A stretch of DNA of 64,000 bases, taken from positions 1-64,000 of the IMG/VR virus record IMGVR_UViG_3300021376_000030. The stretch is one strand, 5' to 3'. The translations under genes were made by a program, and so were the position numbers. This DNA comes from a virus. Positions 5,744-58,114 of this stretch are shown piece by piece; positions within the stretch are counted from its first letter, which is position 1; each line of letters begins with the position of its first letter. Under the pieces are notes generated by a model. That model ran no database searches, had not been told where the DNA came from, and saw only the letters and a list, made by a program, of their open reading frames with translations.

Positions 5744-6076
5744 TTAATTTTTTCCAATATTACAATACATTACATCTGGACGAACACTGCACGGAACAAA
5801 GTCTATATGAACAATATCACCGGAATTAGTACGGGTTGAACCTAAATAAAACACAGTTGAATCCATTTTAAGCATCTCCCATTCTAGGTTGTACATTGTT
5901 ATTTTGACCAAAAACTCTTGTATTATTTTATCGTTTGATTTAATTTTAGGTGGTAAATCAAATTGCTTTAATAGCTCCTCAAGAGTATTTGGACCTGTTG
6001 AAGATTGTTTTGCTGGGCGACTAAATAGTTGCTTTATGAATGAGAAAATAAATGCCATAAAATCCCATACATCCAC
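5744..6076 (-). CDS. hypothetical protein
   Basis: 110-aa ORF; start uncertain. Confidence 0.45.
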   Translation of the reverse strand: MDVWDFMAFIFSFIKQLFSRPAKQSSTGPNTLEELLKQFDLPPKIKSNDKIIQEFLVKITMYNLEWEMLKMDSTVFYLGSTRTNSGDIVHIDFVPCSVRPDVMYCNIGKN

Positions 6077-6276
6077 CCTAATAAGAATGCTATAAAAAAC
6101 AAAAACAAAATATTATAACAATCAATGAGGGTATCTTTTAGAAGATTAATAAAAACCTTCATTTATTAATAATGCTTCTTAGCAGCAATACAGGGCATTT
6201 GTTGTTAAGCTTAGGACAATGGATCCATGCTACAAAAAACAAGCTCAACAAAACAACAGCAATTATGGCTTTATCT

Positions 6277-6480
6277 TTAAACATTATAGATACCTTCAAC
6301 GCAGGGCTCAATAGCACTAAGATAATTGACAAGCTTTTCTTTATCTATCTTTGTTTTAAATCTTATCTCTATATCTTCAATAATATCGTTTAAAATATTA
6401 TTGTTGTTAACAATAGAAGTTAAAACCATTTCTAATGCTAAACTATTTGAAAATTCTCGAAGTGTAACCGGATTAGACAT
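6277..6480 (-). CDS. hypothetical protein
   Basis: ORF in minus-strand run. Confidence 0.5.
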   Translation of the reverse strand: MSNPVTLREFSNSLALEMVLTSIVNNNNILNDIIEDIEIRFKTKIDKEKLVNYLSAIEPCVEGIYNV

Positions 6481-6481
6481 A

Positions 6482-6646
6482 TTATAGCTCCTGAGAAATG
6501 TAGATTTGAGCGAGCATCACTCCTTCCGGAAGATTAGCTTCAGCAATAGTTTTTGCCTCCTCGTTATTGGAAGCAACAATCGATTTATAGCCTAGAAAGA
6601 TTTGTCCTTTTTTTCCAAATTCATACATTTCAAATAAATATTTCAT
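6482..6646 (-). CDS. 54-aa hypothetical protein
   Basis: Hand-translated MKYLFEMYEFGKKGQIFLGYKSIVASNNEEAK...; follows promoter TTGAGA-16-TATAAT at 6654-6681. Confidence 0.55.
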   Translation of the reverse strand: MKYLFEMYEFGKKGQIFLGYKSIVASNNEEAKTIAEANLPEGVMLAQIYISQEL

Positions 6647-6683
6647 TTTTTGTATTATAAAAGAATTTTATAAAATCTCAAGT

Positions 6684-6899
6684 TTATTTCTCAATAATAA
6701 CTGAGCCAATTGTATGTCCAAACTTATCCGTGAGAACCGCTCTCATTTCTTCTGGTTTTTCTCTCATAACCGCAATAAACTTCTCTTTTTTATTATATTT
6801 CAGAGCAAACTCAATCTTGCTCATAATATTTTTTAAAGCAGAGTGGTAGTTGTTTTTAAACTCTGTACTCTCTACGTCAAACTCTATTACCACTTTCAT
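6684..6899 (-). CDS. hypothetical protein
   Basis: ORF in minus-strand run. Confidence 0.5.
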   Translation of the reverse strand: MKVVIEFDVESTEFKNNYHSALKNIMSKIEFALKYNKKEKFIAVMREKPEEMRAVLTDKFGHTIGSVIIEK

Positions 6900-7122
6900 T
6901 ATTTCTATTATAGTCTAGATACTGCCTGGAGTCAATAATAAAATCTAAAAATAAATCATATAATTGATCTAGCTCTTTATTATTGTGTATGACAAGTTTA
7001 GTGTTGCTAGAAATATTATTTAATTGTTTATAAAACATTTCGCTGTATTTTGTTACAAAAAGTTTACATAAAACGAGCTGAGAAACTATTTCTTTTTGTT
7101 CTGAAGAAATATTTTGTGTCAT
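6877..7122 (-). CDS. hypothetical protein
   Basis: ORF in minus-strand run. Confidence 0.45.
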   Translation of the reverse strand: MTQNISSEQKEIVSQLVLCKLFVTKYSEMFYKQLNNISSNTKLVIHNNKELDQLYDLFLDFIIDSRQYLDYNRNNESGNRV

Positions 7123-7200
7123 AATATTTATTATATAATTTTAAAACAAACACTAATGGATATAATATAAACATACTTATTAAAACTTCTAAAACTTTTC

Positions 7201-7464
7201 TCACTCATTATTTAGCTCAAACCCTTCTTCCTCGAGAATAATTATTGCGCTATCTTCAGAAATATCAATTGCACTTTGAATATCATCTTGATCCAAACAT
7301 TCTACAATAGCTTCAATCTCATTTCCTACAGTTGCAGTATCAGCTAAATCATCAAGATCAACTGGAGCGTGCTTATGAATCTCAGTATTAATAAGCCACT
7401 TTGCCACTTCATAATGATCATGGCCTGAATCTATGTAATCTTTTACTTTAGAAGTTGTAATCAT
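7201..7464 (-). CDS. acidic hypothetical protein
   Basis: ORF; likely start at MITTSK overlapping upstream stop. Confidence 0.55.
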   Translation of the reverse strand: MITTSKVKDYIDSGHDHYEVAKWLINTEIHKHAPVDLDDLADTATVGNEIEAIVECLDQDDIQSAIDISEDSAIIILEEEGFELNNE

Positions 7465-37258: not shown

Positions 37259-39085
37259 ATGCCTGAATACGGTAATACAGATACTGATCGATCGCAAACA
37301 TTTGGACGATCTTTAATGAATTATATTAACTCTAAGCTTCCATATCAAAGTTACTCTACTATTGATACCATTAGCAAGCTTAATCCAAAGTACAAGATAT
37401 TTCAAGATACAGGCAGTAGGCGTACCGAGGCATTAGCAAGACAGAGTATTAGCAGTAACTCAGAAATTAATAATCTTGATCCCGCGGGAATTATTGGTCT
37501 GGATAATAATTTTACACAATACATGTATGCAAATATACAGCATGATAAAATTTCAAGATTACGCGATTATCGTGTTATGGCATCATTTTCAGAGGTTGCA
37601 GATGCATTAGATGAGATATGTGATGAAGCTGTTAATAGAGACAAAAATGGTAGAGTTATAAAATTAACTTTTCCTGACTTAGATATTGACGATAAAGATA
37701 AAGAGGTGTTGCAAGGTGAATTTCAGAAATATGTAAATTATTTTGATTTACCCCACAAAGGGTGGGAGTATTTTCGTCAACTTCTTATAGATGGTGAAAT
37801 TTATTTTGAGCACATTATACACAAGAGTTACGAAGAAGAAGGTATTTTAGGTGTTGTTACTATTCCTACAGAATTTGTTGATCCTATTTTCGGTAACGTC
37901 CAGAATATGATGATTAAAGGATATCTTTTAAGAAAGCCAGTTTTTGATAAAACAAATCCAACTAAAATAGTTGACTATGAGATGGTGCCTATGGATAAAA
38001 ACCAAGTCACTTATATTAATTCTGGTATATGGAATGAAAACAGAACTATAAGACTCCCGTTCATAGAAAATGCGAGAAGAGCTTATAGACAGTTAAGCCT
38101 TACTGAGGATGCTATTGTAATTTATCGCTTAGCTAGAGCACCAGAGCGTTTAGTTTTCAACGTTGATGTAGGTAATATGCCCCCGCCTAAGGCTGAGGCG
38201 TATTTAAAGAAACTAATGAATCAATACTGGTCTTCAAAGACATACGATAGTAGTCAAAACTCAGGGGTTGCTGTTAAGAAGTTTAACCCACAATCTATAT
38301 TAGATAATTTCTGGTTTGCTAAAAGGCAAGGCAGCGAGGGTACTAGCGTAACAAGATTAGAAGGCGGTCAAAATTTAGGAAAATTAGAAGACTTAGAATA
38401 TTTTGTAAAAAAGCTTTACAAAAGCTTAAAAGTGCCTGTATCTCGATTAAATGTGGATGATGCTTATAAAGACGATGCAAATATTTTAAGAGAAGAATTA
38501 AAATTTGCAAAGTTTGTAGTAAGAATGCAGCAGAATTTTGCTCAAGGGTTAAAAAATGGGTTCATTACACATTTAAGGTTGCGAGGATTGTGGAAAAAAT
38601 ATGAACTAAGAGAAGATCATTTAGACTTGGAATTTAATGTACCTATTAATTTCTTTGAAATGCGGGAAGCACAGAAGCAAGAAATTAAGACAAATACATT
38701 TCAAAATATCTTACAAGCATCTGATAATATTAGCAAAACATATGCTCTTAAAAAATACATGGATTGGACAGATGTTGAATTACAAGCTAACAGGGAGTTT
38801 ATGCGTAAAGATATGGCTTTTGCGTGGGAGTTAGAGCAAATAAAGGCGGGTGGACCTAGTTGGAAGGAAAATGCAATTGCTGCGGCTGGAGAGGCTGAAG
38901 GTGAATTAGGCAGTGCAGCTGGCGGAGGTGTATCAGGTTCTACACCTCCTGCGTTCGGACCAGCGCCAGGAGGTGAGGCCGAGGCAGGGCCTGTAGCAGC
39001 ACAAGCTGCAGCTGAGCCTGCACCTGTTGAGGGAGGCACTATTCCGGCTCCTACAGGGGCTGCACCGGCTACTCCAGCCGTTTAA
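37259..39085 (+). CDS. portal protein (T4 gp20)
   Basis: YR.MA..EV..A.DEI.DE, L.EDAIVIYRLARAPER.VF.VDVGNMP..KAE.Y, FWF.KR.G..GT.V..L.GG.NL, REELKF.KFV. Confidence 0.97.
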   Translation: MPEYGNTDTDRSQTFGRSLMNYINSKLPYQSYSTIDTISKLNPKYKIFQDTGSRRTEALARQSISSNSEINNLDPAGIIGLDNNFTQYMYANIQHDKISRLRDYRVMASFSEVADALDEICDEAVNRDKNGRVIKLTFPDLDIDDKDKEVLQGEFQKYVNYFDLPHKGWEYFRQLLIDGEIYFEHIIHKSYEEEGILGVVTIPTEFVDPIFGNVQNMMIKGYLLRKPVFDKTNPTKIVDYEMVPMDKNQVTYINSGIWNENRTIRLPFIENARRAYRQLSLTEDAIVIYRLARAPERLVFNVDVGNMPPPKAEAYLKKLMNQYWSSKTYDSSQNSGVAVKKFNPQSILDNFWFAKRQGSEGTSVTRLEGGQNLGKLEDLEYFVKKLYKSLKVPVSRLNVDDAYKDDANILREELKFAKFVVRMQQNFAQGLKNGFITHLRLRGLWKKYELREDHLDLEFNVPINFFEMREAQKQEIKTNTFQNILQASDNISKTYALKKYMDWTDVELQANREFMRKDMAFAWELEQIKAGGPSWKENAIAAAGEAEGELGSAAGGGVSGSTPPAFGPAPGGEAEAGPVAAQAAAEPAPVEGGTIPAPTGAAPATPAV

Positions 39086-42094: not shown

Positions 42095-42127
42095 TAGAAA
42101 ACCTTGTTTGCTGTATAAATAACGTAT

Positions 42128-42703
42128 ATGGCAATAGCTACTATTTCGGTAAATTTTGCTAGTACAGCTGATATTCAATCTGGTACTAGTTCTGTTGTAA
42201 GCGTTAATCCTGCTAATTTAAAGGCTGCACTGCAAAGTGGTTCAAGTCTTTTTGCATTAACAGTTGGTGCAGCAACTTTTCAAGGAGCGTTAACTGTAAC
42301 TACTGGTGGGTTAACTGTAAATACAGGTGGCGCAACAATTACTGCTGGCGGTTTAACCATCTCAGCAGGCGGATATACAGTAACAGGGGATTCTTTTATA
42401 ACAGGCAAATTACAGGTTACTGATGACGTTGTAGCATTTTCATCTTCTGATGCACGATTAAAGGACAATGTACAAAAAATTGAAAATGCAGTAGAAAAGG
42501 TCAAAAAGCTATCTGGAGTAACATTTGATTGGAAGCCAGAGTCTGGATATTCTGGAAAAGATTATGGAGTTATTGCTCAAGAAGTTGAAAATATTTTACC
42601 TGAAATAGTTGTAACAAGGGATAATGGTTACAAAGCTGTTAATTACGATAAGTTAATTCCTTTACTTATTGAAGCCATAAAAGAACTTAGCAATAAGGTA
42701 TAA
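42128..42703 (+). CDS. short fibre protein with C-terminal S74 intramolecular chaperone
   Basis: SD.RLKDN, GV.FDW, GVIAQEVE..LPE.V, V.Y.KL.PLLIEAIKEL; TATAAATA at 42114-42121. Confidence 0.85.
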   Translation: MAIATISVNFASTADIQSGTSSVVSVNPANLKAALQSGSSLFALTVGAATFQGALTVTTGGLTVNTGGATITAGGLTISAGGYTVTGDSFITGKLQVTDDVVAFSSSDARLKDNVQKIENAVEKVKKLSGVTFDWKPESGYSGKDYGVIAQEVENILPEIVVTRDNGYKAVNYDKLIPLLIEAIKELSNKV

Positions 42704-42709
42704 TTTCCT

Positions 42710-43327
42710 ATGGCTTCTAGCGGCATACCAGTAACAGGAACCGTTAGTATAGGTTCTCAAGCAGGAATAACAAGAAGTGTTAACCTGCTCATGGGTCTTG
42801 CAGCAAGTACCTTAAATTCTAGTCTTAGTGGTCGGGAGCAGCAAGCTATGACTTATATTATCACCTATGGTGTATGTATGCCTGGTGAGCTAGAGAAGAG
42901 TACTATTACCTGGGCACCCACCGGTAATGCTCCTTACGGTACTCCAGGCAATAGCTATCTTCCCGCAAGACTAAGTGAATTTAGAGGTAGTTATAGCTGG
43001 CCACAAATTATTTCAGGAAATCCTATTATCGCATCTAATAATCCAAACCCTCCAGGTCCTGGAAATAGTATATTGACAGTAACCGGTAACGGTTCTCCCG
43101 CTTATATAGGTTCGGGCACACCCTACTTTTTCTATATCCTCGGACCTAGTGGGAGAATTCCAGCATCTGGGTGGAGACAAGCTAACATAAGCTCAGGATC
43201 TGCCACTACGTTTGGGGGTGATGGAACAGGGCTTGCAGTTGGCACATATAATGTTTGGGTTAAAGATTTTGAAGGTTGTGGAACACTAGAAAATATTAAG
43301 ATTACAGCTACTGTATCTTACCCATGA
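42710..43327 (+). CDS. putative fibre-tip/virion protein
   Basis: P.TG..S.., LSEFRG motif typical of genes after S74 fibres. Confidence 0.6.
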   Translation: MASSGIPVTGTVSIGSQAGITRSVNLLMGLAASTLNSSLSGREQQAMTYIITYGVCMPGELEKSTITWAPTGNAPYGTPGNSYLPARLSEFRGSYSWPQIISGNPIIASNNPNPPGPGNSILTVTGNGSPAYIGSGTPYFFYILGPSGRIPASGWRQANISSGSATTFGGDGTGLAVGTYNVWVKDFEGCGTLENIKITATVSYP

Positions 43328-44316
43328 ACAAACCATTATTATTAAAAGCATTATCTAAAGCTTACATTATTCTGAATGTTAAAGAGCTTGAAGGTTTTTC
43401 TATAATTCATGCGTCATTAAATCCTAAAATAGTAGAATTATTTTGCGGTAACCAAACCTATGAGATTAATAATAATAATGAGACAGATGATATTACTTTA
43501 ATAGACCTTAAAAATGAATTACCACTTACAATCAATACATGCAATATTTCAACATTAGATTACCCGGGGTTTCCATTTGAAATCCCCCCTGTTTATATTT
43601 TAAATGAAAGATACGAAGGGCGTATCACAGTTGACGATATTATAAGACTTCAAAAAGAGCCTATTCAAGATTTAAGATATTTGAAAGAAATACAGAAAAG
43701 TAAAAATTCTGAAAATAACATCATAACAAATACAGCTATATACAATCTAAGACTACTCTATCATTATTATAGCAAAGTAGAAAAACTAGACAAAAAACAT
43801 ATATTGTTTAATGATAAGGTCTTAAAGAAATTTAAGAAAAGATTGCCTAAAAAATTCATTTTAGACTCAGAGTTTATTAATCGATTACTAGAAGAAAACA
43901 AATCACTGTTTGATTTTGATGATCAAGAAATACAAAAGCGAATAGGTTATTATAACAGTTTAAGCGACGAATTTTATAGCAAGCGTCTTGGATTTGATGT
44001 AGATAACCTTCTTTCTACTGATAAAGAGATACTTAATAAATGTATAAGCAGATGGAAGGAAATTATTACAGAGCATGCAACTGAGGCTTCTGATACACTA
44101 CAAAAAGAAAAAGAAGTATTTAAAGAAAATAATCCAGAAAACAAAACAGAATTAGAGGAAATAGAATTTGTACAAAATATTTTAAAAAATTGTGCTAATG
44201 ATGTTGATTTTAGTAAATTTAAAACACCTAAAGAAGTTTTTTCGTTTTGGCCCCCTGTATTATATCCCCCGCCTCAGTTTGTACTGGACCCATATCATTG
44301 GGTTTTTAAGAAATAA
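43324..44316 (+). CDS. hypothetical protein with tail-fibre-assembly-like C-terminus
   Basis: C-terminal KTPKEVFSFWPPVLYPPP. Confidence 0.5.
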   Translation: MNKPLLLKALSKAYIILNVKELEGFSIIHASLNPKIVELFCGNQTYEINNNNETDDITLIDLKNELPLTINTCNISTLDYPGFPFEIPPVYILNERYEGRITVDDIIRLQKEPIQDLRYLKEIQKSKNSENNIITNTAIYNLRLLYHYYSKVEKLDKKHILFNDKVLKKFKKRLPKKFILDSEFINRLLEENKSLFDFDDQEIQKRIGYYNSLSDEFYSKRLGFDVDNLLSTDKEILNKCISRWKEIITEHATEASDTLQKEKEVFKENNPENKTELEEIEFVQNILKNCANDVDFSKFKTPKEVFSFWPPVLYPPPQFVLDPYHWVFKK

Positions 44317-45043
44317 TATAGTTATATAAATCTGAGCCAGGGTAAAAATTTTTAACAGTCAAATCCCAGTATATCGTTTTTACATCTTTATTCATATATT
44401 TCCCAAACAAACAAGGTATTACACCAAATAAATTTTGCATATTTTTTACATCTTTTATAATATCTTGTGAACAATTACTCTCTATTATACGATTTACCCA
44501 CAAGCCATAATTATCTGGAAATATCACTATGCATTTGTTAGGATCTAATGTAACTTCTAAATATTTTACATCAGACTCTAGTTGACTAATTTCTGTTTTT
44601 TTAAGAATTTTTTTTATGTCTTCTTTTTCAGTTACATAATAATATCTACGAATAGTATCTTCTACTGATATTCCTTGCTTATATTTTGATAGTGCTATGT
44701 CGTCTAATGAGTCACTGTCAACAAATTTATAATAGTCTTTAAACTTAATGTGAAAATAGCTCTTTATATGATTATTATATTTTTTTAACGCTAAACAATT
44801 GTTAAAGCATCTGTCAGGATCTGCATGTTGAACTAGATTTATATATAAATTCTTGTTTTCTGCAAATGGAAAATCTTTATTTTGAATAGGAGTTTCAATA
44901 TTAAAATATAATTTGGTCGCTACAGGGGTGTTATTTTTATACGTTACACCATAAAGACCAAGCCAGCCATTATCAGAAAAAGAATAATTATATACATTAC
45001 TAATTTTCTGATACCAATTATATAGATCTTTAAAACTATTCAT
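44306..45043 (-). CDS. hypothetical protein
   Basis: 245-aa ORF; recurring K.YF/K.YW strands. Confidence 0.55.
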   Translation of the reverse strand: MNSFKDLYNWYQKISNVYNYSFSDNGWLGLYGVTYKNNTPVATKLYFNIETPIQNKDFPFAENKNLYINLVQHADPDRCFNNCLALKKYNNHIKSYFHIKFKDYYKFVDSDSLDDIALSKYKQGISVEDTIRRYYYVTEKEDIKKILKKTEISQLESDVKYLEVTLDPNKCIVIFPDNYGLWVNRIIESNCSQDIIKDVKNMQNLFGVIPCLFGKYMNKDVKTIYWDLTVKNFYPGSDLYNYIIS

Positions 45044-45822
45044 GTAGTCTTAACTAACTCTGCATATTTACTTGAATGCTTGTTCTTTCCATAACCACTA
45101 CAAACATAGGAATCATTTAATTCATTATCTAAATCATAAGCTACAAATGTATTAGGTAATTCTTTGAAATGAACAGAACTTCCGATCTGCCTATATGCAT
45201 ATGCCATCCAATAAGAATCACCATACCATACTATTTTGCTTAAAATATTATCTTTTATTATCTTGAAGTATTCTTTTGATTTGTCTGTACTTCTTATAAC
45301 CATGCAACCTTCTCTAAAATGTACGTCTAAATTATTTAAGTCTATTATATTACAATCAAAATGTCTGAAATTAAATTTTCTTCTTTCCAAGTCCCTGCCT
45401 TCCATTTTTCCTTTTTTTGAATATTTCAGTAAAATATCAGCATTTGTATCTGTAGTTTCAAAAAAATTGTAGACATCTTTCAATATTAAATTATCTGCAT
45501 CCATGTTTATAACATAATCATATTTAAATAGTAGGTCGTATACATTATAAACCTTTTTTAAATTAGCATAAGCTCCTGCCATGCCTACAAATCTCTCTTT
45601 TAAAATTTCTGATGTTTTGTTTTTTATTAAGATATGTTCTTCAAAAAATACCTGATTAGTATGAGTTACCTCAATATTATTATTTTCTATAATAGCACCA
45701 GGAGAGTTTATAATATCTATATTAGCAAAACATCTAGGTGCATTTTTATTAAGGGTATCTAAGCTTTTTTTAAGGTAGGGTAAGTATGCAGCATCACAGC
45801 TATAGGAAAAGCATATCTTCAT
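45040..45822 (-). CDS. GT-A fold nucleotide-diphospho-sugar transferase
   Basis: D..Y, MDAD motif, G.M, WYGD. Confidence 0.65.
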   Translation of the reverse strand: MKICFSYSCDAAYLPYLKKSLDTLNKNAPRCFANIDIINSPGAIIENNNIEVTHTNQVFFEEHILIKNKTSEILKERFVGMAGAYANLKKVYNVYDLLFKYDYVINMDADNLILKDVYNFFETTDTNADILLKYSKKGKMEGRDLERRKFNFRHFDCNIIDLNNLDVHFREGCMVIRSTDKSKEYFKIIKDNILSKIVWYGDSYWMAYAYRQIGSSVHFKELPNTFVAYDLDNELNDSYVCSGYGKNKHSSKYAELVKTT

Positions 45823-45825
45823 ATT

Positions 45826-47112
45826 CTATTTAACTTGTTTTCCGTAAATACAATTTCTACAAATTATCGATTCTGATTCATCATTAAACCCTCTCAAAAA
45901 TTTACCATAATTTTCACTATTATAAATATCATCATAGGTACCGGTAATTAAATTACCTAATACATGCTGCTTCTCCACATCCATACAACATAGTACCACA
46001 TCACCATCTGGGGTTATCATTTGACGCCTATATAGGCCCACAGAACAGTATATCTTGCCCGCTAGTCCTTTATTTTGTCTTGGAGCATCATATTTGATAG
46101 GGGCATTTATCCTAGTATGGGGAATACACACCTCAAATACATGATCTAATTCATTTTTGTTTATTAATTCCTTGATACGGCTATCAATGTTTTTACCTAA
46201 AAACGAAAATCTATTATCAACTACTATATTATTAGTTTTATATTGTTTATTCATTTGTGAAAAAAATTTATCTATTATATTATAATAGTTGTCGCTGTTT
46301 GTCTTATATGACATAAATTCATCTCTTAGGTGTAAGCATCTTCCAGTCCAATATTTTTCATTTAAAAAAAGATCTATATTCTCAGGATAATCTTCTGGTA
46401 TGGTAGTAGCGATGTTCAATCTATGGCCTTTTTGATAGCTATACTCTATTACGTCTACCAACTTATCATATTGAAGAGGGTCGCAAAACCCTGCAAATAC
46501 TAAACCAACCTCTTTTGGTATTTTATCTAAAATTAATTTAAATCTATCCACGGACATATATTTTTCAGATGATGCCTTATGAAGTGTGGCATGGGGGCAA
46601 TAGGAACAATTTACACTACACCCAGTAAATAGTGAAAATTCTAAAGTAATAAAAGGGTCTCGCCCCCATCTAGTAAGATTATCATCTTTGATATTGAAAA
46701 CATAATACGGGTATGGAATTTCTTTTCTACCAGCATAAACAAAAGGATTAGGTGAGAGCATTACAGGCCAGTCATTTAAAAGTTCAAAAGGAGTTTTTGC
46801 TTTAGTATTATAGTTTTTTATTTGATAAAAAGTTTTCTCTAAAAAAGCATAATCATCATCAGAATCCACATTCGCTTTATAGTAATCTAATGTGCGGTGT
46901 ATTACCTTGTCAATAACACCATTAAAAATGGTTTTAGCATTATTAATGTATTCTTCTTTATGTAACATACTCTCTAAATTAAATCCAAATAACAACAAAG
47001 ACAGAGCGACATTTACATCTTTTTGGACAGCTAAATTAGCCCAGGAATAAGGGTAATTAATATTAAATTCTTTGCTAATACCTTCAATATATTTGTATTC
47101 AGCAAGTTGCAT
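45826..47112 (-). CDS. radical SAM/SPASM protein with extra N-terminal domain
   Basis: CSVNCSYC; C-terminal C..DGDVVLCCMD..LGNL..CRNC. Confidence 0.85.
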   Translation of the reverse strand: MQLAEYKYIEGISKEFNINYPYSWANLAVQKDVNVALSLLLFGFNLESMLHKEEYINNAKTIFNGVIDKVIHRTLDYYKANVDSDDDYAFLEKTFYQIKNYNTKAKTPFELLNDWPVMLSPNPFVYAGRKEIPYPYYVFNIKDDNLTRWGRDPFITLEFSLFTGCSVNCSYCPHATLHKASSEKYMSVDRFKLILDKIPKEVGLVFAGFCDPLQYDKLVDVIEYSYQKGHRLNIATTIPEDYPENIDLFLNEKYWTGRCLHLRDEFMSYKTNSDNYYNIIDKFFSQMNKQYKTNNIVVDNRFSFLGKNIDSRIKELINKNELDHVFEVCIPHTRINAPIKYDAPRQNKGLAGKIYCSVGLYRRQMITPDGDVVLCCMDVEKQHVLGNLITGTYDDIYNSENYGKFLRGFNDESESIICRNCIYGKQVK

Positions 47113-47143
47113 AAAATATTTAAAAACAATAAGTACTTATTCA

Positions 47144-47815
47144 ATGGCCAAGATTAACGAATACATTTATAATTTTTTGTCAGACTTTAAAAACAATTAT
47201 AGCCTATTAAAGAATGATGTATATAACATACAGAATAACTACGGCTTGGCAGATATGCACTATAACAGTTATTCGCCTGAAAGTGATTTACTCTATCCTT
47301 GTAATAGAATAAGCGATTTTGTTGCTGATGAAGAAAATTGCCCCGAAAACACCTTTAAAGGTATTCCACTTTACGAACAGGAAACACAAGCAACCAAATT
47401 TTTTGATGTTATTAATCAAAATCCTCTTCTTAATTTATTATACCCAGAGCGGGATAATATGAGATATGATTTCCCTGAACCCCCTGACAGTATGAAAGAA
47501 TTTTGTAAGCAATACAAGGCAATGACCACGTTTATGTATAGTTCTATGAAAACACATAAGAGCATACGACCCGAATATAAACATATTATTCTTTTAATAT
47601 ATGATAAGGGCGACGGGCCTATCACTATCCGATCAAACGGAATTGATGCAACATTAAATGAAAATTTTAATAGTTTTTACTTTTTGCATGATACTCCATG
47701 CGAAATTATTAATCCATTCTATGAAAAAAACTTTATATTTTTAGGTGTATTTGAATTTGAAAATTATGCTGAATTTTCATCTCGTAATACCGTAAACTCT
47801 ATACCAGGTTTTTGA
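47144..47815 (+). CDS. hypothetical protein (possible beta-barrel C-domain)
   Basis: ORF; start MAKINE. Confidence 0.5.
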   Translation: MAKINEYIYNFLSDFKNNYSLLKNDVYNIQNNYGLADMHYNSYSPESDLLYPCNRISDFVADEENCPENTFKGIPLYEQETQATKFFDVINQNPLLNLLYPERDNMRYDFPEPPDSMKEFCKQYKAMTTFMYSSMKTHKSIRPEYKHIILLIYDKGDGPITIRSNGIDATLNENFNSFYFLHDTPCEIINPFYEKNFIFLGVFEFENYAEFSSRNTVNSIPGF

Positions 47816-48090: not shown

Positions 48091-48898
48091 TTATTTTATT
48101 TAATATCTGCTTGTATTTTGTAAGTATCTTTAGCAAAAGCACTCTTTCCTTAATAGAAGACACTATACCGCTATCAAAATTATCTTCAATATTATTGCTT
48201 GTTGTTAGCCAGGGCTTATTCTCACCAGCGTAATGAAAAATTAAACCATTCTTGAGCTTAGAATCAGTAATAAAAGGTGTGGATATAAAGTATTCTGCTG
48301 GTAGAAGCGTAACTAAATTATTAAAATATAAATTCAAAGGACCTTGATTGCCAAGCCAATTTGCCGATTTATATATTTTAAATAATCCTAATCTTACTTC
48401 TTCACACAGGAATTGTTTATTTATTACCATTACCCCGGCATTAAAACATTTGTCAAAATTAAAATTTTTATTCTTTAAAAACTTACTTCCAGAGCAAAGT
48501 AATTTACTATGCAGGCCGTCAGGGTTTGGATGATAAACTGCACCAAAAGCAACAGGATTGGAGAACAGGTGTTCAATATTACCACAAACAATCATATCAG
48601 CATCAAAGAATACTATACTATCATATTGCAAAGTAAAAATTTCAAATCTTTTAGCAGGGTTAATTCTCCATTTTCTTCGTTTGAATGTACGATCAAAACT
48701 ATAATTGTTGCATACTGTTTTGAAAATTACATTTGGATAAATTTTCTTTATCTCACTCTTGTTATACTGTGTTATATTTTCTTCTTCAATAATCACACAC
48801 GGGGGAGTTAATTTATTGTATTGTAAGTAGCTATATAAAAATACTCTGAGAGCATCTACATAGTCATTAGTAATTGTAAATACCATGGCGCTATTCAC
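48083..48898 (-). CDS. glycosyltransferase family 8
   Basis: RFEIF, FFDAD, FNAGVMV, Q..LN.YF, H.AG..KPW. Confidence 0.85.
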   Translation of the reverse strand: MNSAMVFTITNDYVDALRVFLYSYLQYNKLTPPCVIIEEENITQYNKSEIKKIYPNVIFKTVCNNYSFDRTFKRRKWRINPAKRFEIFTLQYDSIVFFDADMIVCGNIEHLFSNPVAFGAVYHPNPDGLHSKLLCSGSKFLKNKNFNFDKCFNAGVMVINKQFLCEEVRLGLFKIYKSANWLGNQGPLNLYFNNLVTLLPAEYFISTPFITDSKLKNGLIFHYAGENKPWLTTSNNIEDNFDSGIVSSIKERVLLLKILTKYKQILNKIND

Positions 48899-49988
48899 TA
48901 AAGTAATCCTCCAGCTCGCTTTCCCTGTTAATGTCCAAAGTTAGACAATGATGACCCCCTCCAAATAGTCTACTGTATCTTATTTTATTAGGTATTGCTT
49001 CTATATTGTATTTTCTAAGCTTAGAGCTCAAGATATCATAATATTCAGGCATACAAATAATTGTTTCTGGTGATAGTGAAAGTATATTGCAATATATTTT
49101 TTCAGAAGCTAGCGGTATGTAGCCTGTTGATGTAGTAGGGGATAATTCAGTTGGCACGTGAATAAACTCCCATTGTTGCAAAGGCTTAGGTAATTTATTA
49201 ACAATATCTAATGTTATTAGCGCAAGCCCAGGGCGAAGAGGTAAAAAAACGGAATCAATATGATGATCAGCAATATCAACTACCCACACTCTGTAGTCTT
49301 TACCTAAGATTTGTTGTAACCATTTAGCACCAAGTCTCTCATGTTCTGTTGATGCATTCATTAATATGGTATTACCTAACCGCAAACAGTTTGCTGCATC
49401 AAACATGATTTCAACCCCACAATCTAACTCTTGACTATATTTTGATTTTAACGACTCATAATATTTCTTAGCATCTAAAGATTTATAGACTCTGGACATA
49501 TCATAAGAATTGTCTGTTACTAGAGGTCTAGGTGCACATATCCATGATGCACCATGCTTGAAATATTCTAAAAACAAATGCTTTAAATAATCGTTTTCAA
49601 ATTGTCGCCATCTTGCAGCCACTGGGGTTTCTATTATTTTGTCTCCTATTACCATGGTCAAATCACGTACATTAAGAGCTGGGTAGTTGGTACTAGACCA
49701 GCACAATGTTTTTGTAGCCTTTAAACATGCAGGTACTTTTGGTCTTAATACCTTAACACCATTATTTTCAAGTAAAGATACAAATGAATTTAAATCTTCA
49801 GTATGCTCTTCAATTATTTTAGAATTTAAAACCCATCTGTCGGCATAATATGAATTACGAGTATCGTATATATTATCATGAAAAAACAATTTGAACGTTA
49901 TATCATTGTGTGGTAATTCTGCGGGAAATCCATTTCCTACAATTACCTCCTTCAGCTTACCCCACTCATTATGACTGTTTACTTGCAT
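48891..49988 (-). CDS. amidinotransferase (glycine/inosamine-phosphate type)
   Basis: VNSHNEWG.LKEVIVG, RD, FDAAN.LR.G, HIDS...LRPG, GGGHHC.TLD..R. Confidence 0.9.
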   Translation of the reverse strand: MQVNSHNEWGKLKEVIVGNGFPAELPHNDITFKLFFHDNIYDTRNSYYADRWVLNSKIIEEHTEDLNSFVSLLENNGVKVLRPKVPACLKATKTLCWSSTNYPALNVRDLTMVIGDKIIETPVAARWRQFENDYLKHLFLEYFKHGASWICAPRPLVTDNSYDMSRVYKSLDAKKYYESLKSKYSQELDCGVEIMFDAANCLRLGNTILMNASTEHERLGAKWLQQILGKDYRVWVVDIADHHIDSVFLPLRPGLALITLDIVNKLPKPLQQWEFIHVPTELSPTTSTGYIPLASEKIYCNILSLSPETIICMPEYYDILSSKLRKYNIEAIPNKIRYSRLFGGGHHCLTLDINRESELEDYFSE

Positions 49989-54729: not shown

Positions 54730-55624
54730 CATACTTGTGACAGGGGGGAGTGGGTTTATAGGTAAAGAAATTATTAAGCATTTAGAATGGGTAAAATATA
54801 GACCTGTTAATTTTGATATTAGCGATAGAAACAATCTTTTATGCATAAATCAACTTGAGCGATATATTAAAAATACTGATATGGTAATTCATATTGCCGC
54901 TCAGGCTAATTTTATGGAAATGGAAAATTTATTAGGAGCACAAAGCGGTGTAATGATAAATGTTGTAGGGACTCATAATATAGCCTATCTTTGTGCAAAG
55001 TATAAAAAGCCTCTAATATATGGATCCACAGTATGCACTTACGGTAATATTGAAACAATAGGCAAAGAGAATTCAGCGCTAAATCCATCTGACCTGTATG
55101 CTTATTCAAAGCTAGCCGGTGAAAATATAATATTAGGGTATGCAAAAACGTTTGGGCTTGAATATATTATTTTACGTTTTGCAACTACATATGGGCCAGG
55201 TATAAGACCTGCATTAGGTGTTCATAAATTCATTACTGCCGCTAAAAAAAATCTTCCATTAAAGATACATGGAAACGGAAAACAAACACGCACCCAAACT
55301 CATGTATATGACATTGCTTCGGGTGTCGTTAAAGCTGTTCAACGATTTAATAAAGCTAAAAATAATATAATAAATCTATCTGCATCCGAACAAATTACAG
55401 CAAAAAAAATGGCTAAAGATATAATTAAAAAGCTAAATAGTAAGTCAAAAATTATTAATATAGATCAACGAAAAAACCAAACGTTTTATGAGAGGTTTTC
55501 TACAGATAAAGCAAAAAAGCTATTAAAATGGAGCCCGGTTTATAGCTGGGAAAAAGGTATAAAAAATACTATTGAATGGTTTATTAGCGCAAAAGATGGG
55601 CGTCATCAACTGCCATCCCGGTAA
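54722..55624 (+). CDS. NAD-dependent epimerase/dehydratase
   Basis: GGSGFIG, HIAA, YAYSK, G.G.QTR..HV.D. Confidence 0.9.
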   Translation: MSSILVTGGSGFIGKEIIKHLEWVKYRPVNFDISDRNNLLCINQLERYIKNTDMVIHIAAQANFMEMENLLGAQSGVMINVVGTHNIAYLCAKYKKPLIYGSTVCTYGNIETIGKENSALNPSDLYAYSKLAGENIILGYAKTFGLEYIILRFATTYGPGIRPALGVHKFITAAKKNLPLKIHGNGKQTRTQTHVYDIASGVVKAVQRFNKAKNNIINLSASEQITAKKMAKDIIKKLNSKSKIINIDQRKNQTFYERFSTDKAKKLLKWSPVYSWEKGIKNTIEWFISAKDGRHQLPSR

Positions 55625-56942
55625 TAGTTCGTACAAAAGTATCCATTGGCTCATCTCTAAACAGCTCTATACAATATTTTTCGTTTATAGTATAAAGCTT
55701 GTGCACCTTTTTTTCGTCTAAATTATACTCTTGGATAATTTTTTGAGCTAAATTATATCTTTCAGTAAAATTTACCCGCAGATAATCTACTAAGTATATT
55801 GCACTAGGATTATTTGTTTCATGATTTACTACACAATATTTTATATATTTTAATGCATCTAGAAATGCATTAAAGTTATAACCAGAATTACCATCAGAAT
55901 ATTCCTGAGCATCAATAGAGTAATAATGGTCAAGCGCTTGCTGCAGCGAAAGCTTGTCGGTGTATCTCAAGTTTAACATCAGAGGAAATTCTAAATGATG
56001 AAAATAAAGCTTTGCCCGATATTTATTTGCTAAATCTAAGATATTCTTTAAGTCAAAAAGGTTTTCAGTACATACCACTGGAGATAAAAAAAACTGTTTA
56101 TTATTTTTATCTAATGCTTCTTTAAATTTTTCTATATTTGAAATTACTCTATCATATTGTGCATTTTTTCTTATTCGTTCATATACCTCTTTTGTAGCTG
56201 CATCAAGTGAAACGCTTAAGTTTATATTAAGATTTTCCAGATAACGTTTAATTTTATCATTATATATAGTACCGTTTGTTTGTATATAGCAAAGTGTTTG
56301 AGATTTTTGCTCTAAAAGAAAATCAAATATCTTGTAATATGCCCCTATTAAAAACGGCTCACCTCCAAAAAAATTAATTCGTTTTGCGTTTAAAAGAAAA
56401 GGCTTTAATTCTTCAAAAAACTCTTCAGTTTCGTAAACTTCAAGTAAAGGTTCTCGTTTTTCTCTATTTTTTCTAATAGAAGAGGAATAAACACCATTAC
56501 ACATTATACATTCTAAATTGCACTTATTACTGAGCTCAAAGTCCAATCTATATGGGTATTTCAATTTTCTAAAACTATCATCATACCTCTCAGATAACGC
56601 TGAGTCTTCTGTATCATAATGTTTTATTTTTAATGTTTTGTAGTTGGCTGAATCAAGCATTAATTCGCACTGCTGACACCCTAGCTTGAAGCTAAAACTA
56701 TCCATTTCCTCTCTTAGCTTCTTTAACTCTTCTCCATTCCAAATTTCCATCAAACTTCTTTGCGGATAAAAGCCAACCGCATAGTCCCTGTTTGCACAAC
56801 ATACAGTTATTCGTCCTCCCTGATTAAAATTCATAGTAGTAAATGGTGCTTGGCAAAGCGTGCCAAATTTGTCTTTTCTATTTTGCAAGAACTGAGTTTT
56901 GGTTAGATGCTTTTGACTACTAAGTAGCTCTTGTATAATCAC
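55584..56942 (-). CDS. radical SAM protein with N-terminal SPASM/twitch domain
   Basis: C.APF..CC..C..C then CNLECIMC, GGEPF, TNGT, SLD. Confidence 0.9.
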   Translation of the reverse strand: MIIQELLSSQKHLTKTQFLQNRKDKFGTLCQAPFTTMNFNQGGRITVCCANRDYAVGFYPQRSLMEIWNGEELKKLREEMDSFSFKLGCQQCELMLDSANYKTLKIKHYDTEDSALSERYDDSFRKLKYPYRLDFELSNKCNLECIMCNGVYSSSIRKNREKREPLLEVYETEEFFEELKPFLLNAKRINFFGGEPFLIGAYYKIFDFLLEQKSQTLCYIQTNGTIYNDKIKRYLENLNINLSVSLDAATKEVYERIRKNAQYDRVISNIEKFKEALDKNNKQFFLSPVVCTENLFDLKNILDLANKYRAKLYFHHLEFPLMLNLRYTDKLSLQQALDHYYSIDAQEYSDGNSGYNFNAFLDALKYIKYCVVNHETNNPSAIYLVDYLRVNFTERYNLAQKIIQEYNLDEKKVHKLYTINEKYCIELFRDEPMDTFVRTITGMAVDDAHLLR

Positions 56943-56963: not shown

Positions 56964-57293
56964 ATGATAGTACAGTATATAATTGGTTTAGGTATTCTGA
57001 CAACATCTTTATTGATATGGTTTTATAGCCCGCTACGGACTTCTTTAGGTCAAATATTTTTTGATAGAAATATATTTTCTAATGATCAATTTGAGACCGC
57101 GCTACTTATTAAGTCTCCATTTTTAGGAAAATTATTGGGGTGTTATATCTGCCTTTCATTCTGGTTATCTTTATTAATCGGTATCGCTAGTCATTTTTAC
57201 TTTAATACGCCTTTAACCTTTATTCCTTTGGTGTGGTTTACCTACCCCGGCCTTGCTTATATATACAAAGCAATAATTGATAGATGCAACTAA
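56964..57293 (+). CDS. membrane protein with CxxC (DUF1360-like)
   Basis: LL.CYICLSFW, hydrophobic segments. Confidence 0.6.
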   Translation: MIVQYIIGLGILTTSLLIWFYSPLRTSLGQIFFDRNIFSNDQFETALLIKSPFLGKLLGCYICLSFWLSLLIGIASHFYFNTPLTFIPLVWFTYPGLAYIYKAIIDRCN

Positions 57294-58114
57294 AGCTTCC
57301 TACCTACACTGTAGAAATTAGTCTCTATGTTGGATGTAGTGTAAACTGTAATTACTGTCCCCATTTAAGCCTACTTAAAAAAAGCTCAGCAAAGTCTTTA
57401 ACAGTATCAGATTATAAACTCATACTCTCTAAAATACCAAAGTTTGTTGGAATAGCTTTTATTGGTATGAGCGAGCCTTTGTTACATAAAGATTTTAAGG
57501 AAATCTTATTACATACAATTAATGAAGGGTACGAGGTGGTTTGCTTTACTACTCTACCAGACAAATACCCAGAACATGTAGATTTATTTTTAGATTCAAA
57601 TCTATGGTTAGTTAGATCTCTCCACATACGAGATGATCAAATGTCATATAAGAATAATAGCGATTATTATTACAGTAATATAGAAAAGTATTTTTCTCAA
57701 ATTAATAAAAATTGTAGCGGCATAAAAAAGGATAGAATCTCTATTTTATCAAAAAATATAGATTTAAAAATACAGACACTTCTACAAAAGTATGATTTAT
57801 TAGACTATGCTCACAGGAGTGAGCCCTTTACCAGGATAAATGCACCTATGAAGTATAAAGCCAAGCCTAATAAGAAACTAAAAGGTAAGATTTATTGCTC
57901 TGAGCATCACGATAAAATACAGCATTTATTACCAGATGGTGATGTGGTCCTATGTTGTATGGATGTAGAAAAAAATCATGTATTGGGCAATCTCTATAAA
58001 GATAACTACGAATCATTGTTTAGAAGCAAAGAATATAATAAAATTCTTAATGGCTTTAATGATCACAAGGTAAACACTATATGCAGATCATGCGCATTTG
58101 CCAGAAAAGCATAA
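57284..58114 (+). CDS. radical SAM/SPASM protein
   Basis: CSVNCNYC; DGDVVLCCMD..CRSC; close paralog of 45826-47112 core. Confidence 0.85.
   Translation: MQLKLPTYTVEISLYVGCSVNCNYCPHLSLLKKSSAKSLTVSDYKLILSKIPKFVGIAFIGMSEPLLHKDFKEILLHTINEGYEVVCFTTLPDKYPEHVDLFLDSNLWLVRSLHIRDDQMSYKNNSDYYYSNIEKYFSQINKNCSGIKKDRISILSKNIDLKIQTLLQKYDLLDYAHRSEPFTRINAPMKYKAKPNKKLKGKIYCSEHHDKIQHLLPDGDVVLCCMDVEKNHVLGNLYKDNYESLFRSKEYNKILNGFNDHKVNTICRSCAFARKA

What the first reader, a model, noticed from the sequence alone, without database searches (positions are those of the whole stretch)
43324..47112. Radical SAM enzyme fused to a domain shared with the fibre-adjacent protein
Seen: 45826-47112 and 57284-58114 share a closely similar core (GCSVNC.YCPH, LH.RD..MSYK, TRINAP.KY, DGDVVLCCMDVEK.HVLGNL), but the former has ~140 extra N-terminal residues ending KTPFELLNDWPVMLSPNP, matching KTPKEVFSFWPPVLYPPP at the end of 43324-44316. 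This T..E...WP..L.P ending resembles tail-fibre assembly chaperones. Inference: an adaptor that docks the enzyme on the fibre, the best direct clue to the cassette's target.
Basis: partly seen in the sequence, partly recalled or inferred. Interest (0 to 1): 0.75.

Follow-up and report, generated by a model that had tools for sequence, protein, structure and literature searches.

The report
Shared phage module on radical-SAM enzyme
In an uncultured T4-like phage, the extra front end of a radical-SAM enzyme is a diverged copy of a small helical domain that also ends the protein encoded just after the tail-fibre genes; this unnamed domain is widespread in uncultured phages, and its role, probably bringing proteins together, is untested.

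Summary
45826-47112(-) (P0001, 428 aa) and 57284-58114(+) (P0002, 276 aa) are paralogous radical SAM/SPASM-type enzymes: 48% identity over 275 aa, E 1e-89. P0001 has about 152 extra N-terminal residues. The 21-residue match to the end of 43324-44316 (P0003) is the tip of a real homology. Profile-profile comparison gives E 1e-5 over 72 columns. An HMM built from 123 other proteins scores P0001 at E 1.4e-5, above all 2000 shuffles.

New here: this roughly 100-aa module (two helices, a short helix, then a WPxLLLPAP-like tail) has no Pfam or PHROG family. It occurs in 144 clusters at 50% identity, mostly at the C-terminus behind varied N-terminal parts. Radical SAM genes lie nearby in 8 of 11 lineages with context.

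Similarity to tail-fibre assembly chaperones is only sub-threshold, through PF16778; lambda-type Tfa (PF02413) is not matched.

Best reading: a Tfa-like association or adaptor domain that couples the enzyme to the fibre-adjacent protein. Docking on the fibre is inferred, not shown.

The parts
45826..47112 (-). P0001, long radical SAM/SPASM-type enzyme (428 aa): N-terminal extension plus catalytic core
   Evidence: AF2 model mean pLDDT 69. Foldseek matches anSME, DesII, SuiB, BtrN and others at E 5e-5 to 1e-3.
46741..46959 (-). Module copy inside P0001 (residues 52-124): long helix, helix, short helix TPFELL, then WPVMLSPNP
   Evidence: hhalign E 1.2e-4 and 1e-5. Module HMM E 4.3e-6 and 1.4e-5. 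Helices 53-81, 88-100 and 108-113 in the model.
45829..46656 (-). Catalytic core of P0001 (residues 153-428): CxxxCxxC at C165/C169/C172 plus four invariant later Cys (C356, C376, C418, C421)
43324..44316 (+). P0003, fibre-adjacent protein (330 aa): small beta-barrel N-domain, helical middle, C-terminal module
   Evidence: No Pfam, PHROG or NCBIfam family. 12 relatives. AF2 mean pLDDT 81.6.
44020..44313 (+). Module of P0003 (residues 233-330): helices 234-269, 274-289 and 302-306, then WPPVLYPPPQFV
   Evidence: Module HMM E 9e-32 and 5e-27. Model.
57284..58114 (+). P0002, short paralogue (276 aa) without the module
42128..42703 (+). Short fibre protein with a C-terminal Peptidase_S74 intramolecular chaperone; first gene of the run 42128-44316
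   Evidence: PF13884 E 1e-18 and tail-fibre PHROGs. TATAAATA at 42114-42121.
42710..43327 (+). 205-aa protein ending in YP, always directly upstream of the module protein
   Evidence: Homologues sit in the same place in L003-L007 and L011. Its stop overlaps the P0003 start.
45040..45822 (-). GT-like protein (260 aa) just downstream of P0001; it is fused to the long radical SAM enzyme in P0009 (704 aa)
   Evidence: Weak Nucleotid_trans hit. 49-50% identical to the gene after the short radical SAM enzyme in L003-L005. P0009 C-terminal extension shown.
44306..45043 (-). 245-aa protein, last gene of the conserved unit radical SAM / GT-like / 245 aa
   Evidence: 34-42% identical in L003-L005 in the same order. 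No family.

Best explanation
Shown: P0001 is a single-auxiliary-cluster (Twitch or partial SPASM type) radical SAM enzyme. Its N-terminal extension holds a diverged copy of a roughly 100-aa helical module. That module is also the conserved C-terminal domain of P0003, the third gene of the run fibre / 205-aa protein / P0003. The module is a mobile, unnamed domain of uncultured tailed phages, usually C-terminal behind variable N-terminal parts.

Inferred: the module works like the conserved C-terminal helical domain of Tfa-type tail-fibre assembly proteins, as a self- or hetero-association domain. P0003-like proteins would then be fibre or adhesin assembly accessory proteins, with a variable client-binding N-part and a conserved helical C-part. 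On the radical SAM enzyme the module would let the enzyme join the same assembly, alone or mixed with P0003. The enzyme and the GT-like protein that follows it would then act at the nascent fibre or adhesin complex rather than free in the cell. In phages whose enzyme is the short form, the module would be supplied in trans by the neighbouring module protein. This parallels RiPP recognition domains, which are either fused to or separate from their radical SAM enzymes.
For: Homology of the two module copies:
- hhalign E 1.2e-4 and E 1e-5, probability 82%.
- Module HMM E 4.3e-6. With the P0003 family removed, E 1.4e-5; 7 of 10 long forms score below 0.01; shuffled maximum 8.7 bits against 13.2-21.6 for those seven.
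- Same order of helices in both AF2 models.

Modularity:
- 144 representatives at E <= 1e-3. 140 carry the motif, and in 101 it lies within 20 aa of the C-end.
- L003, L004 and L005 proteins carry two copies.

Fibre linkage:
- The order S74 fibre, then a 188-257-aa gene, then the module protein is found in 6 of 11 lineages. The 205-aa family is also upstream in L011.
- The P0003 start overlaps the stop of the upstream gene, and TATAAATA lies 7 nt before the fibre gene, as it does 5 nt before the portal gene.

Enzyme linkage:
- Radical SAM genes lie on the same locus or contig in 8 of 11 lineages. They are immediately downstream in L010 (four CxxxCxxC proteins, two confirmed by Pfam) and L011 (two).
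- The long radical SAM form and a P0003 relative share contig lengths in three further lineages: 14198; 15471, 213194 and 2069; 6546.

Tfa analogy:
- Passages of PMC9608196 describe Tfa and Pam3 gp25 as a variable N-domain that binds the fibre plus a conserved helical C-domain that trimerises.
- PF16778 gives sub-threshold hits. PF16778 also touches the C-end of lambda Tfa, residues 163-191, E 0.072.
- An Atlas structural neighbour cluster has PF16778 in 16% of members, TM 0.70/0.85.
Against: - No binding or oligomerisation has been shown by any test.
- P0003 relatives occur without a P0001-type enzyme (L006, L007).
- 3 of 11 lineages have no PF04055 match on the whole contig (L013, L015, L019). 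No base rate of radical SAM genes in comparable contigs was measured.
- The short paralogue and all short forms lack the module.
- The enzyme sits among sugar enzymes (GT8 x2, GT2, AsnB-like, PIG-L, epimerase) and is fused to a GT-like domain in P0009. Its best target-normalised fold match is BtrN, TMt 0.60-0.62. A small sugar substrate and host-surface modification, as proposed for pelagimyophage islands (PMC7029224, passages), therefore fit as well.
- 3 of 10 long forms score only E 0.24-1.3.
- Similarity to any chaperone family is below every curated cut-off, and there is none to PF02413.
Confidence: 0.4

Rival explanations
1. The module is only a generic folding or self-association domain. 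The radical SAM enzymes, GTs and amino-sugar enzymes make or tailor a soluble or lipid-linked sugar for the host envelope, and the fibre is not the target. The shared domain reflects domain shuffling inside a hypervariable island, not a functional coupling to P0003.
For: - Sugar-enzyme content of the island.
- The radical SAM / GT-like fusion P0009.
- Fold matches to sugar-acting BtrN, DesII and BlsE.
- Published reading of glycosyltransferases in pelagimyophage host-recognition clusters as host O-chain modification (PMC7029224, passages).
- A cyanophage with amidinotransferase, radical SAM and aminotransferase genes (PMC12801897, passages).
- The short paralogue needs no module.
Against: - The module is kept in all 10 long forms with invariant W, P, P and F.
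- The long form and P0003 relatives co-occur in about 4 lineages.
- Module genes sit directly upstream of radical SAM genes in the unrelated backgrounds L010 and L011.
Confidence: 0.27
2. The conserved tail (Y/F)WPxLLLPAPxF(V) is a recognition or modification site. Module proteins would be protein substrates or carriers of the neighbouring radical SAM and GT enzymes, like the conserved C-terminal cores of PqqA and MftA. The copy in P0001 would be a pseudo-substrate or a remnant.
For: - The tail is the most conserved part of the module: W, P, L, P and P are each at least 90% conserved over 144 proteins whose mean column identity is 8%.
- It usually lies at the C-end.
- It lies next to radical SAM genes in 8 of 11 lineages.
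- SPASM-type enzymes often modify peptides; SuiB, CteB, anSME and EpeE are among the fold matches.
Against: - The tail lies inside the enzyme itself, and in diverged form (WPVMLSPNP).
- 3 of 11 lineages have no radical SAM gene.
- The radical SAM types beside module genes differ: P0001 type, N-terminal-twitch type, and L010/L011 types without a SPASM hit. One shared substrate site for all of them is therefore not expected.
- In the AF2 model the tail follows a helical hairpin modelled with confidence, 10-residue block mean pLDDT 81-88 over residues 231-310, as part of a domain.
Confidence: 0.13
3. The similarity between the P0001 N-domain and the module is convergent or due to chance (low-complexity helices plus a Pro-rich patch), and the extension has an unrelated role.
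For: - Low identity, 21% over 72 columns.
- hhalign probability only 55-82%.
- 3 of 10 long forms are not significant.
- The helical-hairpin fold is common.
Against: - Three methods agree on the same register.
- The result survives removal of the P0003 family, and no shuffle out of 2000 comes near.
- No other ORF of the 84.9-kb genome scores below E 0.3.
- The motif occurs only twice in six frames.
Confidence: 0.06

Closest known systems
Tfa-type tail-fibre assembly proteins (lambda Tfa, P2 gpG, Mu TfaMu, Pam3 gp25)
   Same: The gene lies just after the fibre or adhesin genes. The architecture is a variable N-domain plus a conserved helical C-domain (PMC9608196, passages). The C-end carries a W-P...P patch after a helix: lambda ends ...EWPAVPVME and P2 ends ...EWPEMPQ.
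   Different: No PF02413 match, although lambda Tfa and P2 G match it at E 3e-43 and 5e-38. hhalign probability is 0.16%. The module is longer, has a 13-residue spacer before WP, and has a much longer conserved tail. Its N-domain is a small beta-barrel with weak WYL/Sm-like matches, not the Tfa beta-sandwich.
Pfam PF16778 Phage_tail_APC (phage tail assembly chaperone protein, 60 positions)
   Same: It is the only Pfam family hit repeatedly by module copies. The L010 module, residues 24-71, aligns to profile positions 2-48 at E 0.0029; the L015 module scores E 0.07. 2 of 144 module proteins hit at E <= 1e-3. An Atlas structural neighbour cluster has this family in 16% of members.
   Different: All hits are below the 26.6-bit cut-off. 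There is no hit in the window's genome at E <= 10 and none for the P0003 or P0001 copies. No paper names the family in the library searched.
RiPP recognition elements (PqqD-like) fused to or separate from SPASM radical SAM maturases
   Same: An accessory domain at the N-terminus of a SPASM-type radical SAM enzyme that also exists as part of a separate protein encoded nearby. This is a resemblance in logic, recalled from general knowledge.
   Different: There is no Pfam hit of any kind for P0001 residues 1-124 at E <= 1. The model is all-helical, whereas RREs are winged-helix domains with a beta-sheet (recalled).
Twitch/SPASM radical SAM enzymes BtrN, anSME, DesII and SuiB
   Same: CxxxCxxC motif, a partial TIM barrel, and a C-terminal Cys-rich auxiliary-cluster domain. 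Foldseek E 5e-5 to 6e-4, with BtrN TMt 0.60-0.62.
   Different: Sequence similarity is too low for phmmer against the PDB (best E 0.24). No NCBIfam family is reached. The substrate is unknown. None of these enzymes carries the phage module.
Host-recognition cluster of pelagimyophages and cyanomyophages
   Same: A hypervariable island beside the tail fibres of T4-like phages, with GT8 glycosyltransferases and radical SAM cassettes (PMC7029224, passages).
   Different: The passages I read say nothing of a shared module or of a radical SAM fusion. The supplements were not available.

Membership tests
Radical SAM superfamily | CxxxCxxC cluster motif and a PF04055 match | tested here: met
   C165, C169 and C172 are invariant in 10 of 10 long forms. 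PF04055 scores 37.7 bits for P0002 (cut-off 29.5) but only 24.5 bits for P0001. The fold matches radical SAM structures.
SPASM/Twitch auxiliary-cluster domain | PF13186 match above the cut-off | tested here: met
   44.9 and 41.8 bits against a cut-off of 21.5.
Full SPASM (two auxiliary clusters) | Seven-Cys motif (definition recalled) | tested here: not met
   Only four Cys after the core are invariant in the long forms: C356, C376, C418 and C421. In the short forms C224, C225, C267 and C270 are invariant and C205 nearly so. This is consistent with one auxiliary cluster.
Unnamed module family defined here | Significant match to the module HMM, with a W-P...L.P tail after two helices | tested here: met
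   P0003 scores E 9e-32 and 5e-27; P0001 scores E 4.3e-6 and 1.4e-5. hhalign E 1e-5.
Caudo_TAP / lambda-type Tfa (PF02413) | PF02413 match | tested here: not met
   No hit for P0003 or P0001, for 0 of 144 module proteins, or for 0 of 14 modules at E <= 5. Positive controls lambda Tfa and P2 G score E 3e-43 and 5e-38. hhalign probability 0.16%.
Phage_tail_APC (PF16778) | Score at or above 26.6 bits | tested here: not met
   The best score is 17.8 bits, for the L010 module. There is no hit for the window's copies. The recurrent sub-threshold hits leave a distant relationship open.
Tfa-like chaperone, by function | Binds the fibre and is needed for its trimerisation | not testable with these tools
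   Only gene position and architecture are known.
RRE (PqqD-like) domain of RiPP maturases | PqqD-family match and a winged-helix fold | tested here: not met
   No Pfam family for P0001 residues 1-124 at E <= 1. The N-domain model is all-helical.

The most novel reading that the evidence does not exclude
A phage recruits radical SAM and glycosyl-transfer enzymes, through a Tfa-like helical module, onto its assembling receptor-binding proteins. The fibre tip or adhesin would then be chemically modified (a cross-link, or a tailored glycan) as part of assembly. The module would be a general phage tag that delivers tailoring enzymes to virion proteins, supplied in cis (P0001) or in trans (P0003-like proteins next to radical SAM genes in L010, L011 and L016).
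Probability: 0.2. Interest if true: 0.8.

Novelty: new variant of a known kind. Interest (0 to 1): 0.55.

Why it matters
Hypervariable islands next to the tail fibres of marine and lake T4-like phages are full of glycosyltransferases and radical SAM genes whose targets nobody knows. The usual guess is host-surface modification.

A conserved domain that links a fibre-adjacent protein physically (by fusion) and genomically (by neighbourhood) to radical SAM enzymes gives a concrete, testable handle on that question: does the module bind, and to what? It also defines a sizeable unnamed domain family, 144 clusters at 50% identity, for annotating proteins that currently have no annotation.

If the enzymes act on virion proteins, this would be enzymatic diversification of receptor-binding proteins, which has not been described for radical SAM chemistry. 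If they do not, the module is still a new phage association domain.

Tried and rejected
Homology and context searches that gave nothing:
- DNA of 43324-47112 against GenBank phages: no match.
- tblastn of P0003, P0074 and P0053 against GenBank phages: no match. P0002 gave only 4 distant records at 25-32% identity.
- The search for related loci: A2 in viral contigs found nothing. A1 in metagenome contigs found nothing. A1 in viral contigs found 3 loci, all short form. A2 in metagenome contigs found 3 loci.
- Third homologous-protein search, L010 module protein against shorter proteins: nothing.
- Atlas search with P0001 1-135: no model and no feature hit.
- Paper search for PF16778 or Phage_tail_APC: 0 papers.

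Structure and fold searches:
- Foldseek of the P0003 model against the PDB: nothing at E <= 0.001, only weak Sm/PWWP/WYL-like hits to the N-domain.
- BFVD: best E 7.6e-3, to T4-like 'protein 31.1' and WYL-domain proteins, N-domain only.
- VIA-align against 48,161 chains: only generic helical hairpins over residues 227-313, Z <= 6.5. No Tfa or Pam3 gp25 chain appeared among the 50 rows shown, which does not exclude them.
- Module profile against PDB sequences: best E 0.26. phmmer of P0002 against the PDB: best E 0.24.

Complex prediction:
- P0002 with P0003 residues 225-330, two 4Fe-4S clusters and SAM: scores 0.00, 0.40 and 0.00, verdict 'no answer'. This counts neither for nor against binding.

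Other:
- Long forms and short forms are each clustered on the tree, but the backbone is unresolved. One origin of the fusion is neither shown nor excluded.
- TATAAATA is not enriched in the window, 16 found against 18.4 expected. Only the positions directly before start codons are suggestive. The P0001 upstream region has only partial matches.
- I considered the extension to be an RRE and rejected this.
- I considered the module tail to be a membrane anchor and rejected this on sequence alone: about 12 residues and Pro-rich. No tool was run for it.
- The label 'amidinotransferase' for 48891-49988 comes from earlier notes. My scans gave only phrog_25854 of unknown function and no Pfam or NCBIfam family.
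- Supplements of the papers were closed. Gene tables of PMC7029224 might list these families.

Full report
**Setting.** The window lies in an 84.9-kb virus record estimated to be 40% complete. It carries a T4-type portal gene at 37259-39085. About 30-41% G+C. A roughly 15-kb island follows the fibre genes, between 44.3 and 58.5 kb. It holds:
- two GT8 glycosyltransferases, a GT2, an AsnB-like amidotransferase, a PIG-L deacetylase and an NAD epimerase;
- a weak Nucleotid_trans-like protein;
- three radical SAM enzymes. The third, 55584-56942, reaches NCBIfam NF033640, 'twitch domain-containing radical SAM protein' (187 bits against a cut-off of 170).

Islands of this kind beside the fibres of pelagimyophages and cyanomyophages are in print, with GT8 enzymes and radical SAM cassettes (PMC7029224, passages only).

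**The observation.**
- P0001 (45826-47112, minus strand, 428 aa) and P0002 (57284-58114, 276 aa) share 48% identity over 275 residues, E 1e-89. Both have SPASM and Radical_SAM matches.
- P0001 has about 152 extra N-terminal residues.
- Its stretch 103-123 matches P0003 (43324-44316) 297-317 at 10 of 21 positions, pairwise E 0.004.
- The pattern WP..[LMF].P occurs only twice in all six frames of the 84.9-kb contig, in these two proteins.

**Families.**
- P0001 has 20 relatives at E <= 1e-3. Nine are further long forms: eight of 420-428 aa and one of 704 aa. Nine are short forms of 270-283 aa. Two are distant.
- In the ten long forms the N-terminal part is conserved. Mean pairwise identity is 39-51% in its three parts, against 59% in the core.
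- P108, W115, P116, P121 and F124 are invariant.
- The 704-aa protein, P0009, is a long form fused to a C-terminal part like the gene that follows P0001 (45040-45822).
- P0003 has 11 relatives of 324-330 aa. Their most conserved stretch is the C-end, NDvDFsKFKTPxELFxFWPPVLYPaPxFV.

**Homology of the two regions.**
- hhalign of the two family alignments aligns P0001 52-124 with P0003 233-316: 72 columns, E 1.2e-4, probability 55%.
- With 14 diverse module copies taken from fetched loci (A6) against the long-form alignment, the same register gives E 1e-5, probability 82%.
- An HMM built from 150 module-bearing proteins, none of them a radical SAM enzyme, was searched against 668 sequences: the six-frame ORFs of the genome plus P0004-P0023. 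It hits P0003 at 9e-32 and the P0001 ORF at 4.3e-6. It hits 7 of 10 long forms below 0.01. The other three score E 0.36-1.3 and align to the same region (two) or a wider stretch that covers it (one). The next genome ORF scores 0.31.
- After removing P0003, its family and every strong hit, 123 sequences are left. P0001 still scores E 1.4e-5 (20.6 bits). The best of 2000 shuffled N-domains reaches 8.7 bits.
- Both AF2 models show the same order: long helix, helix, short helix over TPxEL, then a coil with the W-P tail. This is P0003 helices 234-269, 274-289 and 302-306, mean pLDDT 81.6, and P0001 helices 53-81, 88-100 and 108-113, mean pLDDT 69.1.
- I could not superpose the models.

**The module is a widespread, unnamed domain.**
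- A profile of the P0003 family (A3), searched against 1.84 billion representatives, found 144 proteins at E <= 1e-3, 24 at <= 1e-10 and 9 at <= 1e-30.
- Most of them match only profile positions of about 215-322.
- 140 of 144 carry the tail motif. It lies within 20 residues of the C-end in 101 and further in for 39. Four, mostly fragments (92-417 aa), lack it. Seven have two regex hits.
- The consensus of the module is ...W..lI.eh...A...L..E...(acidic)...EEIe.I..ll.d....iDLs.fkT..dll.YWPpLLLPAPdFV.
- Of the 144, none has a Pfam family at E <= 1e-3 except PF16778 (2 proteins) and a spectrin repeat (1 protein).
- P0003 has no PHROG or NCBIfam family.
- Three module proteins gave no tblastn match in 50,697 GenBank phage records.

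**Gene context.** Context therefore comes from 3 IMG/VR loci found with the radical SAM alignment, 3 metagenome loci found with the P0003 alignment, and 11 IMG/VR loci found with a degenerate DNA pattern for the tail. Eight of those 11 encode a module protein at E <= 1.4e-18. After merging copies (L009 = L016 = L017; L004 close to L005) and dropping the 2.8-kb L008, there are 11 lineages including the window.
- Fibre linkage. In the window, L003, L004/5, L006, L007 and L013, an S74-ended fibre gene is followed by a 188-257-aa gene and then the module gene. The 205-aa family, which ends in YP, is also directly upstream in L011. There is no S74 match in L010, L011, L015, L016 or L019.
- Radical SAM linkage, present in 8 of 11 lineages:
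  - the window has three;
  - L003 and L004/5 have one short form 2-3 kb downstream, followed by the same GT-like and 245-aa genes as after P0001;
  - L006 and L007 have a relative of the third radical SAM enzyme only;
  - L010 has four consecutive CxxxCxxC proteins starting at the next gene, two of them checked by Pfam;
  - L011 has two;
  - the L016 contig has two, about 3.5-6 kb downstream by my estimate.
- The whole contigs of L013 (39.7 kb), L015 (22.1 kb) and L019 (107 kb) have no PF04055 match. L015 has a GlcNAc-type glycosyltransferase two genes away.
- I measured no base rate, so the 8 of 11 is descriptive only.
- L003, L004 and L005, whose only enzyme of this family is the short form, have P0003-like proteins of 430-434 aa with two module copies.
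- Cluster tables show that a P0003 relative and a long radical SAM form were seen on contigs of identical lengths in three more lineages: 14198; 15471, 213194 and 2069; 6546. This suggests, but does not prove, that they share contigs.

**Chaperone likeness.**
- The module is not a PF02413 member. No hit was found in any scan, although lambda Tfa and P2 G score E 3e-43 and 5e-38. The module HMM gives them about 0 bits, and hhalign gives probability 0.16%.
- PF16778 Phage_tail_APC is the only family hit more than once, always below its cut-off: L010 module E 0.0029 (17.8 bits), L015 module E 0.07. It is never hit in the window's own copies.
- PF16778 also touches the last 29 residues of lambda Tfa weakly, E 0.072.
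- The Atlas's own model of P0003 has, among its four nearest structural neighbours (all viral), an 86-aa cluster with PF16778 in 16% of members, TM 0.70/0.85.
- Passages of PMC9608196 describe Tfa-type chaperones as a variable N-domain that binds the fibre plus a conserved helical C-domain that trimerises. The module proteins have the same layout.

**The enzyme.**
- The fold matches anSME, DesII, SuiB, CteB, BtrN, BlsE and EpeE (E 5e-5 to 1e-3). The highest target-normalised TM is for BtrN, 0.60-0.62.
- Only four Cys after the core are invariant, which suggests one auxiliary cluster.
- The matches include both sugar-acting and peptide-acting enzymes, so the substrate class stays open.

**Reading.**
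- The homology and the modular, phage-wide nature of the domain are shown.
- That the module is an association or adaptor domain is inferred from architecture, gene order, fusion and fission (one copy on the enzyme here, two copies on the neighbour in L003-L005), and the weak chaperone likeness.
It remains untested. A sugar pathway aimed at the host envelope fits the island equally well.
- Two other first-reader notes on this genome describe the same island and the same fusion. They are not independent evidence.

Noticed in passing
window 42128-42703: The fibre gene here is only 191 aa: about 52 N-terminal residues plus the S74 chaperone end. Its relatives are 286-834 aa (L006, L003, L004, L007, L013). 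It looks like a shaft-deleted mini-fibre.
   Followed up: partly
window 42710-43327; L003 5283-5930; L004 5747-6418; L006 1625-2221; L007 3378-3944; L011 5936-6637: A family of 188-234-aa proteins, Gly/Ser-rich and always ending in YP, sits directly upstream of the module gene, even in the otherwise unrelated L011. No Pfam or NCBIfam family. It could be the client of the P0003-like protein.
   Followed up: partly
L003 5960-7252; L004 6455-7759; L005 about 5944-7254; L013 4546-5442: The L003, L004 and L005 proteins carry two module copies by HMM, with the first copy diverged (FWPFNIVPP...). L013 has one HMM copy plus a second tail-like motif seen by eye.
   Followed up: partly
L010 778-6276 (minus strand): Four CxxxCxxC radical SAM-type genes (344, 335, 323 and 305 aa), interspersed with genes of 319 and 219 aa, run directly downstream of a 237-aa module protein.
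   Followed up: partly
window 55584-56942: The third radical SAM enzyme has its SPASM/twitch match at residues 30-93, before the radical SAM core (136-304). It reaches NCBIfam NF033640, the N-terminal twitch type.
   Followed up: partly
protein P0009 (704 aa): A natural fusion of the long radical SAM form with the GT-like protein that is a separate downstream gene in the window (45040-45822).
   Followed up: partly
window 47072-47815: The listed TTG start overlaps the P0001 start by 41 nt on the other strand. Relatives in L006 and L008 align only from residue 28, so the true start is probably further downstream.
   Followed up: no
window 48891-49988: This is the best-conserved island gene, 66-71% identical in L003-L005. 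It has only phrog_25854 (unknown function) and no Pfam or NCBIfam family. Earlier notes call it an amidinotransferase, which I could not confirm.
   Followed up: partly
window 37247, 42114, 20324, 53787, 62605, 63426: TATAAATA lies 5-18 nt before the start codons of the portal gene, the fibre gene and four other genes, although the motif is not enriched overall (16 found against 18.4 expected).
   Followed up: no
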